From Ruditapes philippinarum (taxonomy: Eukaryota): a stretch of DNA of 64,000 nt. Position 1 is the stretch's first letter. Each line of letters opens with the position of its first letter. The stretch covers positions 1 through 64,000 of the forward strand of contig NW_026856539.1 of NCBI RefSeq assembly GCF_026571515.1. Reading direction: 5' to 3'. The position numbers are program-made. Below are positions 24,590-32,263 of this stretch, piece after piece.

Positions 24590-27500
24590 AAAATAAATAA
24601 TAAATAAATATATGTTTGTTCTCATTAGCTTAGAGGTCTCATTATTGTGACCAAGCTTATTTTCATGTGGTGCTAAAATCACTAAGTGTAATTTGTTTCG
24701 TTTTAATTGTAAATAAAAGAGTTCTATAAATAAATATCATAATTTTCTTGTAATTTTGTTTATGTTTGATTTATGTTTGATTAATATTCAACAGTGTCCA
24801 TATTTTAAAAAAATGTCTATAATTTCATCAATTTTAAATCCATGACATCGCTAAGAGTAATTATTAGGGAGATGAAGGTTTTGTAATATTATCAGTTCCA
24901 GAATTTTATTTTGAAAATACATCCGAGGATCCAATTTCGGGCAAGTTCACTGACTATAGGTTGTACACCCCTAATGCACTGTCTCCACGAAGTAACTAAA
25001 TCAAAGCACAGAAGGCGCTGAATTTGTTTGGGTCTCAGAATGTCAGAAAGGTGAAGGTTGTGAGATTATAAACCAATTTGTTTTTGTATAGTGCCACCTG
25101 TGCTTTCCAGTGTTTTAACTGTAGTAAATTGGCTAATTGCAACACTGATTCAATGTTTATTTGTCTTTAAAAAAAATTTAAAAATGAGTGGCCTCAACTA
25201 GGATTTGAACTCGAGACCTCTCGCTTCATAAGCGAGCGTGCAAACCCCCCGGCCATATGAAGTTATATGTTAACGGTCTGAAGAAAACCATATTATTCTA
25301 AATTAGGGTTTGTAACTTATTTTTTCGACGCTAAACACAGATGTAAATAATCATGTAGCATACTACTAAAGCATGAAATATCTATAAAAAATGAAACAAT
25401 ATTAGAAATCTTCGACCATTCGGGAACTACTTTGCTTGAATATTATTTTTTGACAATCTTTACGCATTGATCTCCCCTGAAAAGTTCGGCTTTGTGTTAC
25501 ATATAAAAGGGAAGTAACCGCTTCAAAAAAGATGGCTTACTTTTAGGCATATTTGCAATTAACAGCATTAGGCTCTGAAAATTTCGCTACAAATTATTTT
25601 GTTTGGGTCTGACGAAACCCAAACAAATAAAACTTAAAGATAAACAGTTGTGACAAAAACGAGAATTTATATTTTTGTCGTTAATTTCGTTCCCCGTTAC
25701 AACCGCGACAGAACGAAATAACGACATGCAGAAAATCAGTTCACCATAATTTCAAAGTCTTGGAGATATATCTATATATTTTTGAGCAACCATGTCCTAG
25801 TATATTTTTTGAACAAAACTTTACTTTTTAGCATTACATTGTACATGTATTTTCAAAACGCTAACTTAAAATTGACCGTGGTAATTGGAATGTACAGACA
25901 GCGACGTTCATGGCATAATAAGGCCTCCGGCCTAAAGTCTAAAGTTATAAAGAATCATAATCATTTAAGGAATAAATTTATAATATGCATGTTATATGGA
26001 AAATGTATTAAGATAAGTGTCGTTTGTAAACAGAGATATATTTGTCAGTTTTAATTAATTATTTATTGATAGCTAAAAATTAGAGAACAAGATTTAACAA
26101 GAAAAAGGTAATATTTGGTTTGATAGCAATTTTATAAAGTTTACAGGTCAATGATTTTGGAAAGTTCCCGATGCCAGGCCGATGCTTGCAAAGATTTAGT
26201 AACACGAGAATTATACATGTATAAATGTAACGCATTCCGTGATATTATTGGTCAAAGTCTTCATCTATGATACAGAATAATTCTTTGAACAACACTGTTT
26301 AAAAAGGTCCCTCATTCTAACATATAAACACATTGGAAGAAGGATATAAAATGCTGAGATTTACTTTTAGGCATTTAATCGGGTATTTTGCATTAAGCAG
26401 TTAACAGTAAGCATTAAGCAGTCGATTGTAAGCATTAAGCAGCCGATTGTAAGCATTAATCTGTCGACTGTAAGCATTAAGTAGTAGACTGTAAGCATTA
26501 AGTAGTAGACTGTCGTTTATAGAATTCCGTAAGAATATGACAATTCTATTTCGCTGTATAGCACCAGTATGTAAGTTTTGTACTGCAACGCTGAAAGTAT
26601 GTTGAAAGTTGTTATTAAATGATGCATTTACCATATACAAGCACTGAATCAAAATCTTCGCCGAATGAATTATTGGCATGGCATGAATAGTTTCCAAACT
26701 GACAGTCTCGAATTTTCAGTAACCGCAAACGAAATGTTGTCGTATACCCATCTAGATTCTTCTCAACCTAGAATACAGTGAAAATGAATAACGCGTATGT
26801 CCATAAACATGGATAATAGCAATAGAAACTGAAATATATTGATCATGTTGAAAAAAGTCAGTTATTATTAAAGCTAGTGCTCTGAATGTGTGTTGAAACA
26901 GATCACTTATTACTGACGCTACTGCTGTGTGTTGAAAAACGTCAGTTAATTAAGAGCTCTAACCGTTAACGTTTAAGCTTGTGCTCTTAGTGCTAACAAA
27001 GGTATGTAATCATTTACGCTATAGTGCTTTCAGTGCTAACAAAGGTATGTAATCATTAACGCTATAGTGCTTTCAGTGCTAACAAAGGTATGTAATCATT
27101 TACGCTATAGTGCTCTCAGTGCTAACAAAGGTATGTAATCATTTACGCTATAGTGCTTTCAGTGCTAACAAAGGTATGTAATCATTTACGCTATAGTGCT
27201 TTCAGTGCTAACAAAGGTATGTAATCATTTACGCTATAGTGCTCTTAGTGTAAACAAAGGTATGTAATCATTTACACTATAGTGCTCTCAGTGCTTACAA
27301 ATGTATGTAATCATTTACGCTATAGTGCTTTCAGTGCTAACAAAGGTATGTAATCAATTACGCTATAGTGCTTTCAGTGTTAACAAAGGTATGTAATCAT
27401 TTACGCTATACAATAGTAGTGCTTTAAGTGATGACAATTAAATGTTTGTGTATTTTAACTCTAGTGCTCTTTGTAATGACAAATGTCTGTTATCAGTGAC

Positions 27501-30500: not shown

Positions 30501-32263
30501 CCATTAAAGGGTGTTAAAATAAACTGATCTGCTGCAGATTAGTTACAATAAATAACTGAACCAATTTAGGGGAGGAATAAATCTTTAATAGATATAATAA
30601 ACTTTATTATGTATATTACCTGTAAAGTTGGTATTCGAACCATTGATGGCCCAAGCACACGCATCAGACTCTACATTTGCATCAACAGCTGTTGATAGAA
30701 GAAAATATCATTTTTAAAAATATGAAATTATTGTCTGTAATTTTGAATTCTAAATATGAATAAACAGACATTTTCCAAGTAATTTTTTTTGTATCAAGCT
30801 TAATTCTCCACTGTTTAAATATTTAGATACGTACAATTCATTGAAAGGCTGACTTTATCTGTCAGTGTTTTACAATTTGATACATTTAAAAATTACTGAA
30901 TTAATTAATCATGTCTCATGGATAGAGTTGGGTCATTTGGGATGAAAAATTAAACAAACAGTTCCACTTTGCTACCGGAAGCGACACATCTCTTTGTTCA
31001 TAATAAAGCTCATAATCCAATGTGAACATCTCGGATATTATAAATAACTGTTCTTATCCGAAAGGGCCGAGAAGATGCGATTGGCTCATAAATAAGTGAC
31101 CCCAAGAAATGTTTATCATACATCTTTTGATTTAATGAAAGACAATTCCTCGCTCCACATGTATATAAGGATATATACATAATAACAACTTACCATAAAT
31201 GTGCACCGACTCAGACCTGTTACCAGCTGAGTTCTCGGCAACACACGTAAACACTCCGAGCTGTTCTTGCTGTAGGTAAGACAGTGACAGACTTAACGTA
31301 GACAACGTGTTATCTGAATATCCCTGAAACATTCCCACCTAGAAATACAGATTAAATACCCTGATATAGAACTTGATATATGTATCCTGATACATTCTAA
31401 AATTGCATTTTTAATTTTAAAATATTGATAAAATTGTAACAAAATATAGTGACACCGCAATGTCGAAGAAAGGAAACATTACAATTAACTTCCTTCTCAA
31501 GCTGTTAATACTAAATGCAGCAGACATACCAATCTTACGTTTCATTCTGTTCCTTCAAAAAAAAGTCGATAGGCAAAATTCTGAACAGAAAAAGAATTAA
31601 TACGTTTGAAGGAAAGGTAAATATTGAGAAAAAATGAAAATTTACAATACGTCTACATATCTACAACACAAATCTACCAACACTTGTAACGACGTTGGTA
31701 GAACGTCATAATACTGATAATGAGCATAATAATATGCAAAAAAACTAAAGTTGGTGAATTAACATAGGGGAATGTTTCCCATATATAAAGACACAAACCG
31801 CTCTTGGTGGTGAGCTAGCTTTTCACCGACAGGGTTTGTGTGCCTTAAACATGTTAAAACGTTACACTCTTTCGTCAAGAGAGTCAAGTGATTTTATACC
31901 GAGTGTTAGCCTGCCACTTGGTGGATTTTTAATAACTTGTACACATATCGTAATTAAATATTAAAAAGATAAAAAAAAATATGTTAATATGCACCCTATT
32001 GCAAAAATCTTAATCAAACCTTATACAATTCTTCATTGGCAGATTCTAGAGTATCGTTGTCCTTTAACCAATATATAGTTGGTGTTGGAATGGAAAAAAT
32101 CCTACATTCCAAATATATCTTGCCTCCGATAGTGTGCCCTATTTCTTTTACTCTCAAATTTATTTCAGGCGCAACTGAAAAGAAAAAGTGATCGTTTAGT
32201 TGTTATTGAAGTACTTATACTGTATAATCATCACCATCATCGTCATAACTGCTGTCGTCGTCG

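What the first reader, a model, noticed from the sequence alone, without database searches (positions are those of the whole stretch)
26632..32174. Lachesin/IgLON-like gene with a triplicated, splice-symmetric third Ig module
Known: lachesin, DIP and IgLON proteins have three Ig domains. Seen: the Ig3 exon pair (phase 1-0, 0-1) occurs three times (32174-31194, 30398-29308, 28284-26632), separated by phase 1-1 linker exons, all open and strongly diverged. The last copy is closest to the paralog Ig3 (APKVSLL.K.IGQ; FGNY.C.A.NS.G.DFD.VLVYG). Inference: either a 5-Ig long-stalk receptor or interchangeable cassettes yielding 3-, 4- and 5-Ig isoforms, a small Dscam-like diversification.
Basis: partly seen in the sequence, partly recalled or inferred. 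Interest (0 to 1): 0.72.

Follow-up and report, generated by a model that had tools for sequence, protein, structure and literature searches.

The report
Five-Ig DIP/IgLON-like clam adhesion gene
A Manila clam cell-adhesion gene of the DIP/IgLON type carries its third immunoglobulin domain three times in a row, giving a five-domain protein that public annotation already predicts; it is a real but modest variation on a very common theme.

Summary
On the minus strand, three two-exon Ig modules (32174-31194, 30398-29308, 28284-26632; phases 1-0, 0-1) follow Ig1 and Ig2. Two small phase 1-1 exons (30688-30620, 28641-28570) separate them. All are open, have GT-AG borders and match the correct halves of Pfam I-set.

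The window is Ruditapes philippinarum. A public protein, "neurotrimin-like isoform X2" (600 aa, P0001), matches 15 exons exactly and contains all three modules and both linkers. So the five-Ig product is already an annotated model.

A three-Ig paralog (P0002) lies head to head with it. In Mercenaria mercenaria, of the same family, two relatives carry a second Ig3 after a linker; one is a complete four-Ig protein. The other 28 of 30 relatives compared have one Ig3.

By sequence and fold the family is DIP/IgLON ("Wirin"), which is described as having two or three Ig domains.

My best reading is one gene for a membrane-anchored receptor with a lengthened stalk, made by multiplying the unit [Ig3 + stalk exon]. 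Cassette use is possible because every unit is frame-neutral, but nothing here supports it, and a Dscam-like mechanism is unlikely. Transcript evidence could not be seen.

The parts
35927..35990 (-). Exon 1: start codon and hydrophobic signal-peptide-like stretch (21 residues plus 1 base); the 5' UTR was not determined.
   Evidence: Exact match to P0001 residues 1-21. Mean hydropathy of residues 4-17 is 2.29. The donor is GT.
34928..35037 (-). Ig1, first half (phase 1 to 0).
   Evidence: Exact match to P0001. Weak Pfam Ig_3 match, profile positions 1-27. AG/GT borders.
33994..34198 (-). Ig1, second half (phase 0 to 1).
   Evidence: Pfam V-set and I-set, second half of the profile. Best solved relatives are Drosophila DIP-alpha (E 7.1e-15) and other DIPs and Dprs. 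100% identical to P0001.
33147..33287 (-). Ig2, first half (phase 1 to 1 in the public model).
   Evidence: Pfam Ig_3 and I-set, first half. Borders taken from the exact match to P0001 and the sequence.
32416..32532 (-). Ig2, second half (phase 1 to 1).
   Evidence: Pfam ig and Ig_3, second half..
32020..32174 (-). Ig3 module a, first half (phase 1 to 0).
   Evidence: Pfam I-set positions 1-45 of 90, E 1.7e-5. Exact match to P0001 residues 214-264.
31194..31338 (-). Ig3 module a, second half (phase 0 to 1).
   Evidence: Pfam I-set positions 54-87..
30620..30688 (-). Linker exon A (69 nt, phase 1-1; 23 residues, two N-x-S/T sequons, one Cys).
   Evidence: Exact match to P0001 residues 313-335. 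Borders. Composition.
30244..30398 (-). Ig3 module b, first half (phase 1 to 0).
   Evidence: Pfam Ig_3 and I-set, first half.. Its best outside match is the fourth-Ig first half of Mercenaria P0026 (47%, score 149).
29308..29446 (-). Ig3 module b, second half (phase 0 to 1); carries three extra cysteines.
   Evidence: Pfam I-set positions 54-86.. Four Cys counted.
28570..28641 (-). Linker exon B (72 nt, phase 1-1; 24 residues, 35% Ser+Thr).
   Evidence: Exact match to P0001 residues 434-457..
28112..28284 (-). Ig3 module c, first half (phase 1 to 0). The public model implies a start at 28266, and a third in-phase AG acceptor gives 28263.
   Evidence: Pfam Ig families, first half..
26632..26767 (-). 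Ig3 module c, second half (phase 0 to 1).
   Evidence: Pfam I-set positions 54-86..
23277..23324 (-). C-terminal stalk exon (48 nt, phase 1-1).
   Evidence: Exact match to P0001 residues 555-570. Borders.
22829..22920 (-). Last coding exon: short polar stretch, then a 16-residue hydrophobic tail and the stop codon. This looks like a GPI-attachment signal (inferred).
   Evidence: Exact match to P0001 residues 573-600. Mean hydropathy of the last 16 residues is 1.91.
39063..46083 (+). Neighbouring three-Ig paralog, head to head with the focal gene (9 coding exons, including one stalk exon and one hydrophobic-tail exon). It is the comparator for the ancestral layout.
   Evidence: Its exon at 41435-41638 is 100% identical to P0002, 'opioid-binding protein/cell adhesion molecule homolog [Ruditapes philippinarum]', 368 aa. 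Exact mapping.

Best explanation
This is one gene (minus strand, 35990 to 22829, 15 coding exons) for a cell-surface adhesion/recognition protein of the DIP/IgLON ('Wirin') kind.

The ancestral layout is still seen in the paralog next door: signal peptide, Ig1, Ig2, Ig3, a short Ser/Thr/Asn-rich stalk exon, and a hydrophobic tail exon. In the focal gene the unit [Ig3 first half, Ig3 second half, stalk exon] stands three times in tandem. The product therefore has five Ig domains, with two 23-24-residue linkers between domains 3/4 and 4/5.

Shown:
- the exons, their phases and their splice sites;
- their Ig nature;
- a public protein model that strings them all together;
- the same kind of extension (a second Ig3 after a linker) in another clam of the same family.

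Inferred:
- Ig1 keeps the partner-binding role it has in DIPs and IgLONs.
- The extra membrane-proximal modules and their probably glycosylated, flexible linkers act mainly as a longer and more flexible stalk. This sets how far Ig1 reaches from the membrane.
- The protein is GPI-anchored.
- The first duplication is older than the split between Ruditapes and Mercenaria.
For: Gene model:
- P0001 (600 aa) maps in 15 blocks at 100% identity, in order, on one strand. That covers 599 of 600 residues in exact blocks; the remaining residue is a split codon.
- There is only one signal exon, one Ig1/Ig2 set and one hydrophobic-tail exon for the three modules.
- All borders are GT-AG, and donor and acceptor quality is similar for module exons and Ig1/Ig2 exons.

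Integrity of the modules:
- Every half-exon matches the correct half of the I-set profile.
- Each module keeps the first-half Cys, the Trp 12 residues after it, and the second-half G-x-[YF]-x-C-x-A-x-N.

Relatives:
- Mercenaria P0152 has four Ig stretches by Pfam, against three in P0153.
- In its predicted structure, Ig1-3 are confident (block pLDDT 83-97). Residues 316-360 between Ig3 and Ig4 fall below 50. Ig4 shows Ig-like strands at pLDDT 55-73. A terminal helix spans 474-499.
- Its Ig1-3 superpose on DIP-theta (target-normalised TM-score 0.89, rmsd 2.1 A) and on IgLONs (0.81-0.87).

Conservation:
- The Ig3 exons of the three-Ig paralog are 75% and 69% identical to Mercenaria P0153.
- The three focal modules are only 37-50% identical to any Mercenaria module.
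- The Ig1 second-half exon is about 51-53% conserved in both gene lines.
- This fits relaxed constraint on multiplied spacer domains.

Family background: Wirins bind through the faces of their N-terminal Ig domains and have fully extended ectodomains (PMC6525511, passages seen).
Against: - No transcript, read or isoform list could be inspected. P0001 is a database prediction, and its label 'isoform X2' implies at least one other form that I could not see.
- The public model's junction into module c cannot be made with an AG acceptor in this window (the bases before 28266 are TG). Canonical in-phase acceptors lie 18 nt upstream and 3 nt downstream.
- The modules evolve fast, and module b carries three extra cysteines. 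This could also mean decay or a new function rather than a plain spacer.
- One-to-one correspondence between Ruditapes and Mercenaria modules is not resolved: bootstrap support is below 50% for the Ruditapes modules, and the signals are mixed. A shared origin of the extension is therefore likely but not shown.
- Homology of the linkers to the stalk exon rests on position, phase, size and composition only. No sequence similarity is detectable (local scores 16-32).
- The fold evidence comes from a relative, not from this gene's own product.
Confidence: 0.6

Rival explanations
1. Optional cassettes. The same gene makes 3-, 4- and 5-Ig isoforms by skipping one or two [Ig3 + linker] units. This could exist alongside the five-Ig form and would give receptors of different reach.
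For: - Every unit after Ig2 begins and ends in phase 1, so any skip keeps the frame.
- The public name 'isoform X2' and a cluster of 3 member sequences show that the source holds more than one form.
- Mercenaria P0026 is an 'isoform X2' that ends exactly at the exon border in the middle of its fourth Ig. So alternative forms are predicted in the sister lineage.
Against: - Phase 1-1 symmetry is the general rule for this gene's units, including the C-terminal stalk exon, so it says nothing specific.
- A search with the Ig1 second-half exon over proteins of 120-2000 aa returned one cluster only (1 of 5 candidates), not separate shorter isoforms. This is weak evidence, because the clustering rules are unknown to me.
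- Module exons have splice signals as good as the constitutive ones.
Confidence: 0.2
2. Relic modules. Modules b and/or c (or a) are decaying leftovers of an old duplication that the prediction pipeline strung into the model, and the real protein has three Ig domains.
For: - The modules are the least conserved part of the gene (37-50% identity to Mercenaria modules, against 69-75% for the paralog's Ig3).
- There are extra cysteines in module b, linker A and module c.
- The public model has a non-AG junction at module c.
Against: - Six Ig half-exons and two linkers are all open. Only 4-6% of frames of that length are open in this window, and 23% for linker length.
- All have GT-AG borders in the right phase.
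- The fold-defining residues are kept in all three modules.
- A complete four-Ig relative exists in Mercenaria.
Confidence: 0.12
3. Dscam-like mutually exclusive splicing. Exactly one of the three modules is chosen per transcript, directed by competing RNA pairings.
For: There are three similar-sized, diverged copies of the same half-domain exons in tandem.
Against: - The public model holds all three.
- The copies are separated by linker exons, and Mercenaria proteins hold two in series.
- Duplex energies between the Ig2-to-module-a intron and the four introns upstream of the linker and module exons were not stronger than shuffles: 17, 45, 36 and 26 of 50 mononucleotide shuffles reached the observed value. 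This test is crude.
Confidence: 0.03

Closest known systems
Drosophila DIPs (Dpr-interacting proteins), within the Wirin family of Cheng et al. 2019 (PMC6525511)
   Same: - The Ig1 second-half exon's best solved relatives are DIP-alpha (E 7.1e-15 and 1.8e-14), DIP-gamma, DIP-eta and DIP-theta.
- The Mercenaria relative's Ig1-3 superpose on DIP-theta Ig1-3 (target-normalised TM-score 0.89).
- It has a signal peptide, Ig1-Ig2-Ig3 and a hydrophobic C-terminus.
- The paper states that DIPs and Dprs expanded in arthropods and mollusks (passages).
   Different: DIPs have three Ig domains; this gene encodes five, with two linkers. Binding partners are unknown here.
Vertebrate IgLONs (neurotrimin, OPCML, NEGR1, LSAMP, IgLON5)
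   Same: - The database names of P0001, P0002, P0026 and P0152 are borrowed from them.
- They have three I-set Ig domains plus a GPI anchor (PMC10084454, passage).
- The fold match has target-normalised TM-score 0.81-0.87.
   Different: - IgLONs are the deuterostome branch (PMC6525511).
- Sequence similarity of the Ig1 exon is weak (E about 4e-3).
- They have three Ig domains, not five.
Mercenaria mercenaria P0152 ('limbic system-associated membrane protein-like', 505 aa) and P0026 ('igLON family member 5-like isoform X2', 396 aa)
   Same: - They are from the same bivalve family, Veneridae.
- They have the same layout, with a linker and a further Ig3 after Ig3.
- They are the closest outside matches of several focal exons: Ig2a 69%, and module b first half 47%.
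   Different: - They have four Ig domains (P0152), not five.
- Their two Ig3 modules are 55-71% alike, against 28-39% in the window.
- Orthology module by module is unresolved.
The neighbouring paralog P0002 ('opioid-binding protein/cell adhesion molecule homolog', 368 aa; window 39063-46083, + strand)
   Same: - It has the same exon plan for Ig1, Ig2 and Ig3 (two exons each), then a stalk exon and a tail exon.
- Its Ig3 is closest to module c.
   Different: It has a single Ig3, and that Ig3 is well conserved with Mercenaria P0153 (75% and 69%).
Dscam1-type tandem arrays of alternative Ig half-domain exons
   Same: Both have tandem duplicated exons that encode parts of an Ig domain.
   Different: Here whole domains plus linkers are repeated and strung in series in the public model. 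There are only three copies, and no sign of selector/docking pairing.

Membership tests
Wirin family (DIP/Dpr/IgLON/Lachesin/Klingon; Cheng et al. 2019) | N-terminal Ig domain related in sequence to DIP/Dpr/IgLON Ig1. | tested here: met
   The Ig1 second-half exon matches DIP-alpha at E 7.1e-15, further DIPs, Dprs and RIG-5, and IgLONs at E about 4e-3, among 49 PDB sequences with E <= 0.01.
Wirin family (DIP/Dpr/IgLON/Lachesin/Klingon; Cheng et al. 2019) | [quoted passage not shown] | tested here: not met
   There are five two-exon Ig domains in one frame. The paper's wording is from passages seen.
Wirin family (DIP/Dpr/IgLON/Lachesin/Klingon; Cheng et al. 2019) | Signal peptide and hydrophobic C-terminus (GPI or transmembrane attachment). 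| tested here: met
   Tested by hydropathy only. Exon 1 residues 4-17 have a mean of 2.29, and the last 16 residues a mean of 1.91 with nothing after them. No signal-peptide or GPI predictor was available.
Wirin family (DIP/Dpr/IgLON/Lachesin/Klingon; Cheng et al. 2019) | Homo- or heterophilic binding through the Ig1 face. | not testable with these tools
   This needs binding data or a complex structure.
Vertebrate IgLON subfamily | Deuterostome lineage; three Ig domains; GPI anchor. | tested here: not met
   The host is a mollusc and there are five Ig domains. The IgLON names in the databases are automatic labels.
Lachesin subfamily | Closest relationship to insect Lachesin rather than to DIPs. 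| not tested
   No Lachesin came back among the solved structures, and I built no tree with named Lachesins. Some scallop relatives are labelled 'lachesin-like' by their source.
Dscam-like mutually exclusive exon arrays | Only one copy of the array is included per transcript. | tested here: not met
   The public protein model holds all three modules, and Mercenaria P0152 holds two. No transcripts were seen.
Dscam-like mutually exclusive exon arrays | Docking/selector intron pairing. | tested here: inconclusive
   The duplex energies of four intron pairs were within the shuffle range. This is a crude whole-intron test with mononucleotide shuffles.

The most novel reading that the evidence does not exclude
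The three [Ig3 + linker] units are optional cassettes, so that one clam Wirin gene makes receptors with three, four or five Ig domains. That would be a length code that tunes how far the Ig1 binding site reaches across the cell-cell gap. It would have arisen in venerid clams and would be accompanied by fast evolution of the multiplied modules.
Probability: 0.15. Interest if true: 0.55.

Novelty: new variant of a known kind. Interest (0 to 1): 0.3.

Why it matters
Wirins (DIPs, Dprs, IgLONs) are treated as two- or three-Ig neuronal recognition molecules whose binding sits in Ig1. A natural member with a tripled membrane-proximal domain would offer a test of whether ectodomain length matters for this family. 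It also adds a clean example of growth by tandem duplication of a three-exon unit in an expanding mollusc gene family.

It is not a new principle. Domain multiplication by exon duplication is common in the Ig superfamily, and the five-Ig model already sits in a public annotation.

Tried and rejected
- **Word-indexed protein searches with single exons:** these found only the window's own proteins (1 of 5 and 1 of 21 candidates). Other species were reached through the exhaustive search and through Mercenaria P0026 as query.
- **Module trees:** neighbour-joining with 200 bootstraps on 51 and 48 columns. The Ruditapes modules sit on long branches with support below 50%. The first half of module b points to Mercenaria module 4, while its second half shares an extra Cys position with Mercenaria module 3. 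I therefore draw no module-by-module orthology.
- **Linker-to-stalk-exon homology by sequence:** local scores of 16-32, which is noise.
- **DNA repeats between the modules' introns:** none. The four direct-repeat families found are micro- and minisatellites or low-complexity sequence.
- **Docking/selector pairing:** the first script timed out. The rerun with mononucleotide shuffles gave no signal.
- **Assembly artefact (false duplication):** rejected, because the copies share only 28-39% of residues and no DNA similarity.
- **Rfam scan of the window:** 0 matches.
- **Literature:**
  - 'lachesin' + 'bivalve': 0 papers.
  - 'neurotrimin' + 'Ruditapes philippinarum': 0 papers.
  - 'Wirins': 9 papers, 7 listed, none on members with more than three Ig domains judging by titles and abstract starts.
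  - The searches gave only general papers (listings seen).
  - The supplementary figures of PMC6525511 (mollusc DIP, Dpr and Lachesin trees) could bear on whether longer mollusc members were noticed. Supplements are closed, so I did not see them.
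Full report
**What the window is.** The window is AT-rich animal DNA (GC 0.28-0.36 in 2-kb steps) with one run of 133 N at 59203-59335, which I left alone. The exon at 34198-33995 (minus strand) is 100% identical to a public protein. This is P0001, "neurotrimin-like isoform X2 [Ruditapes philippinarum]", 600 aa, in a cluster of 3 member sequences (1 hit among 5 candidates). The window is therefore Manila clam DNA (Bivalvia, Veneridae).

**The observation.**
- Module a is 32174-32020 plus 31338-31194. Module b is 30398-30244 plus 29446-29308. 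Module c is 28284-28112 plus 26767-26632.
- Each module is a phase 1-0 exon followed by a phase 0-1 exon, with AG and GT at every border.
- Between the modules lie two phase 1-1 exons, 30688-30620 (69 nt) and 28641-28570 (72 nt).
- In Pfam, each first-half exon matches the first half of I-set/Ig_3 and each second-half exon the second half. E-values are 1.5e-5 to 1.3e-2 for pieces of 45-57 residues.
- Within the window, the first halves find each other at E 4.5e-11 to 2.7e-9 and the second halves at 1.3e-4 to 2e-3.
- The only further copy is the Ig3 of a gene on the other strand. No fourth module exists at E <= 1, apart from short weak hits with E >= 0.07.
- Only 4.3% of 51-codon frames, 5.8% of 46-codon frames and 22.9% of 23-codon frames are open in this window.

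**The gene.**
- P0001 (sequence) maps by exact string matching in 15 ordered blocks on the minus strand, from the ATG at 35990 to the stop at 22831-22829.
- The order is: signal exon; Ig1 in two exons; Ig2 in two exons; module a; linker A; module b; linker B; module c; a 48-nt stalk exon (23324-23277); and a last exon that ends in 16 hydrophobic residues (mean hydropathy 1.91).
- The five-Ig reading is thus the one a public annotation already holds.
- There is one signal exon, one Ig1/Ig2 set and one tail exon for all three modules. This argues for a single unit.
- From Ig2 onward every unit starts and ends in phase 1. The "splice symmetry" is therefore a property of the whole gene, not a mark of cassettes.

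**A detail that does not fit.** The public protein reads ...KRG-E-APKV... across the linker B to module c junction. In this window that needs an exon start at 28266, which is preceded by TG, not AG. I cannot tell whether this reflects a difference between individuals, a non-consensus junction, or the difference between isoforms.

**What I left out.** No whole-product search, fold, signal-peptide prediction or GPI prediction was made for this gene. P0001 and P0002 served only as rulers on the window and as subjects of local comparisons. Statements about the product's fold therefore rest on half-domain matches and on a relative.

**The neighbour.**
- Head to head with the focal gene lies a paralog on the + strand, from the ATG at 39063 to the stop at 46081-46083. 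It matches P0002 exactly: [quoted passage not shown], 368 aa.
- It has the same two-exon plan for Ig1, Ig2 and a single Ig3. A phase 1-1 stalk exon and a hydrophobic-tail exon follow.
- The focal gene thus looks like this plan with the block [Ig3 first half, Ig3 second half, stalk exon] present three times.
- Linkers A and B sit where a stalk exon would sit. They have the same phase, a similar size and a polar, Ser/Thr/Asn-rich make-up (two N-x-S/T sequons in A; 35% Ser+Thr in B). They show no detectable sequence similarity to any stalk exon, so this step is inference.

**How old, and how constrained.**
- The modules share 35-39% of residues in the first halves and 28-31% in the second halves.
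- No DNA similarity links the modules' introns. The four repeat families found in 22500-36200 are satellites or low-complexity sequence.
- The duplications are therefore old, and an assembly artefact is excluded.
- All three modules keep the first-half Cys, the Trp 12 residues on, and the second-half G-x-[YF]-x-C-x-A-x-N.
- Module b has three extra cysteines. Linker A and module c have one each.

**Relatives elsewhere.**
- An exhaustive HMMER search with the Ig1 second-half exon gave 1610 proteins at E <= 1e-3.
- I laid the window's exon peptides on the 151 proteins then held. The IgLON/DIP-like ones show Ig1-Ig2-Ig3 once. Only 2 of 151 show a further Ig3-type match after a complete Ig3: P0001 itself and P0026.
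- With P0026 as query, 35 proteins reached E <= 1e-10 among 2332 candidates. The sources name them as follows:
  - P0026 is [quoted passage not shown], 396 aa. It ends exactly at the exon border inside its fourth Ig.
  - P0152 is [quoted passage not shown], 505 aa.
  - P0153 is an OBCAM-homolog isoform of 364 aa, on the same 86.5-Mb contig as P0026.
- Pfam counts four Ig_3/I-set stretches in P0152 and three in P0153.
- Of 30 relatives aligned (19 named mollusc proteins and 11 unnamed representatives), 2 have two Ig3 modules; both are from Mercenaria. The other 28 have one, and in one of those, P0130, only the second half passed the threshold.
- Mercenaria is in the same family as Ruditapes. 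The extension is therefore not a one-off. On present sampling it is confined to venerid clams: four Ig in Mercenaria, five here.

**Orthology.**
- Module-by-module orthology is unresolved (bootstrap below 50% for the Ruditapes modules).
- Module b's first half is closest to Mercenaria's fourth Ig (45-47%). Module a's second half is closest to Mercenaria's third (44-46%). Module c is closest to Mercenaria's fourth Ig and to the OBCAM-like Ig3 (45-50%).
- This is compatible with one shared duplication plus one more in the Ruditapes line, but it does not prove it.

**Rates.** In the three-Ig gene line, the Ig3 exons are the best conserved (75% and 69% between P0002's exons and P0153), while the Ig1 second half is 51%. 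In the focal gene the Ig1 second half is 52-53% to the Mercenaria proteins, but the three Ig3 modules reach only 37-50%. Subject to the uncertain orthology, the multiplied modules have been evolving faster. This fits domains that must fold but need not keep a partner-binding surface.

**Which family.**
- The Ig1 second-half exon's best solved relatives are Drosophila DIP-alpha (E 7.1e-15 and 1.8e-14), DIP-gamma, DIP-eta and DIP-theta. Dprs and C. elegans RIG-5 follow. Human IgLONs appear only at E about 4e-3 (49 sequences at E <= 0.01).
- The module c first half finds generic I-set domains: titin, DCC, LRIG and, weakly, DIP-eta.
- A structure prediction for the Mercenaria four-Ig relative (alignment of 30 sequences; mean pLDDT 76.5) gives:
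  - confident Ig1-3;
  - a segment below pLDDT 50 at residues 316-360, between Ig3 and Ig4;
  - an Ig-like strand pattern at moderate confidence for Ig4;
  - another low-confidence stretch at 442-473;
  - a terminal helix at 474-499.
- Its Ig1-3 superpose best on DIP-theta Ig1-3 (E 1.8e-29, target-normalised TM-score 0.89, rmsd 2.1 A), then on other DIPs and IgLONs.
- Cheng et al. 2019 (PMC6525511; passages and abstract seen):
  - state that DIPs and Dprs expanded in arthropods and mollusks;
  - state that Wirins bind through the faces of their N-terminal Ig domains, with fully extended ectodomains.
- A 2022 review gives three Ig domains plus a GPI anchor for IgLONs (PMC10084454; passages).
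- The clam gene therefore works like a DIP/IgLON-type receptor but does not meet the family's usual domain count. It is a variant, not a plain member.

**Mechanism proposed.**
- A surface protein, probably GPI-anchored, presents a DIP-like Ig1-Ig2 head on a stalk of three Ig3 modules joined by two short, probably glycosylated and flexible linkers. This roughly doubles the reach of a three-Ig relative.
- The exon structure and the single open frame are shown.
- The anchor, the role of Ig1, the spacer role of the modules and the flexibility of the linkers are inferred.

**Cassette and Dscam-like readings.**
- Frame symmetry allows skipping. The label "isoform X2" tells me (from my knowledge of that source's naming, not from a call) that another isoform is annotated.
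- Splice signals of the module exons match the consensus as well as those of Ig1/Ig2 (donor matches 6-8 of 9 against 6-7 of 9). Linker B's donor is the weakest (4 of 9).
- Whole-intron duplex energies between the Ig2-to-module-a intron and four downstream introns were ordinary: 17, 45, 36 and 26 of 50 shuffles reached the observed value.
- Strict mutual exclusion is contradicted by the public model and by the Mercenaria proteins.

**Literature.**
- I found no paper on this gene or on Wirins with more than three Ig domains.
- The counts were: 'lachesin'+'bivalve' 0; 'neurotrimin'+'Ruditapes philippinarum' 0; 'Wirins' 9 papers, 7 listed; other searches gave general papers only (listings seen).

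**Verdict.** The five-Ig reading is the better supported and is already present as a public prediction. The cassette idea is open but unsupported, and the Dscam analogy is unlikely. This is a new variant of a known kind, of modest interest.

Noticed in passing
window 28263-28284 (minus strand): The public protein model implies an exon start at 28266, which is preceded by TG in this window. In-phase AG acceptors lie at 28284 and 28263. This could be a difference between individuals, a non-consensus junction, or the difference between isoforms.
   Followed up: partly
window 29308-29446, 30620-30688 and 26632-26767 (minus strand): There are extra cysteines beyond the Ig pair: three in the second half of module b, one in linker A and one in the second half of module c. 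Mercenaria's third Ig also has an extra Cys, at the same place as one of module b's. These could form additional or intermolecular disulfides.
   Followed up: no
window 32214-32347: A trinucleotide microsatellite ((CAT/CAC)n on the + strand) fills most of the 241-nt intron between Ig2 and module a.
   Followed up: no
window 26895-27496 and 26369-26534: A 43-nt minisatellite (about 14 units) lies inside the intron that splits module c. A 21-nt repeat lies just downstream of module c's second exon.
   Followed up: no
window about 11870-20320: A tandem array of units of about 1.84 kb (4-5 copies, mostly 85-100% alike) lies 2.5 kb beyond the gene's 3' end. The units hold an 86-89-codon open stretch with no Pfam match and internal 105-nt inverted repeats.
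   Followed up: partly
window 39843-40009 and 40366-40532: A 167-nt inverted repeat, 99% complementary and 356 nt apart, lies inside the first intron of the paralog. It looks like a foldback-type insertion.
   Followed up: no
window 435-818 (+), perhaps from 1: This is probably the virus-like stretch the operators mention. It is a 128-codon open stretch whose nearest protein-atlas clusters (scores 0.98 and 0.97) are eukaryotic hypothetical proteins. In those clusters 14% and 12% of members carry a double-jelly-roll capsid-like domain (PF21738). A lower hit is a giant-virus capsid cluster.

The atlas recognition value is low, and Pfam finds nothing even at E 10, so this is a lead only. It is a fragment at the window's edge. 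The neighbouring open stretch 1-273 also has no Pfam match. I described it only, and did not count breaks or define its limits.
   Followed up: partly
window 48061-49885 (+): Exons of a sodium/bile-acid symporter family gene: Pfam SBF at E 4.6e-23 and 4.8e-11.
   Followed up: no
window 51335-51754 (+) and 55195-55491 (+): An open stretch with a PAN domain (E 7.6e-5) and one with the C-terminal part of a C-type lectin domain (E 1.6e-6).
   Followed up: no
window 56297-57238 (-): A 314-codon uninterrupted open frame encodes a complete protein kinase domain (Pkinase, E 2.5e-52, profile positions 1-263 of 263). It is apparently intronless.
   Followed up: no
window 21875-22108 and 41066-41345 (both strands): The same short repeated element is seen as similar translations in both places. 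One copy lies just beyond the focal gene's 3' end and the other in the paralog's second intron. It is probably a dispersed clam repeat.
   Followed up: no
window 59203-59335: A run of 133 N, left as it is.
   Followed up: no
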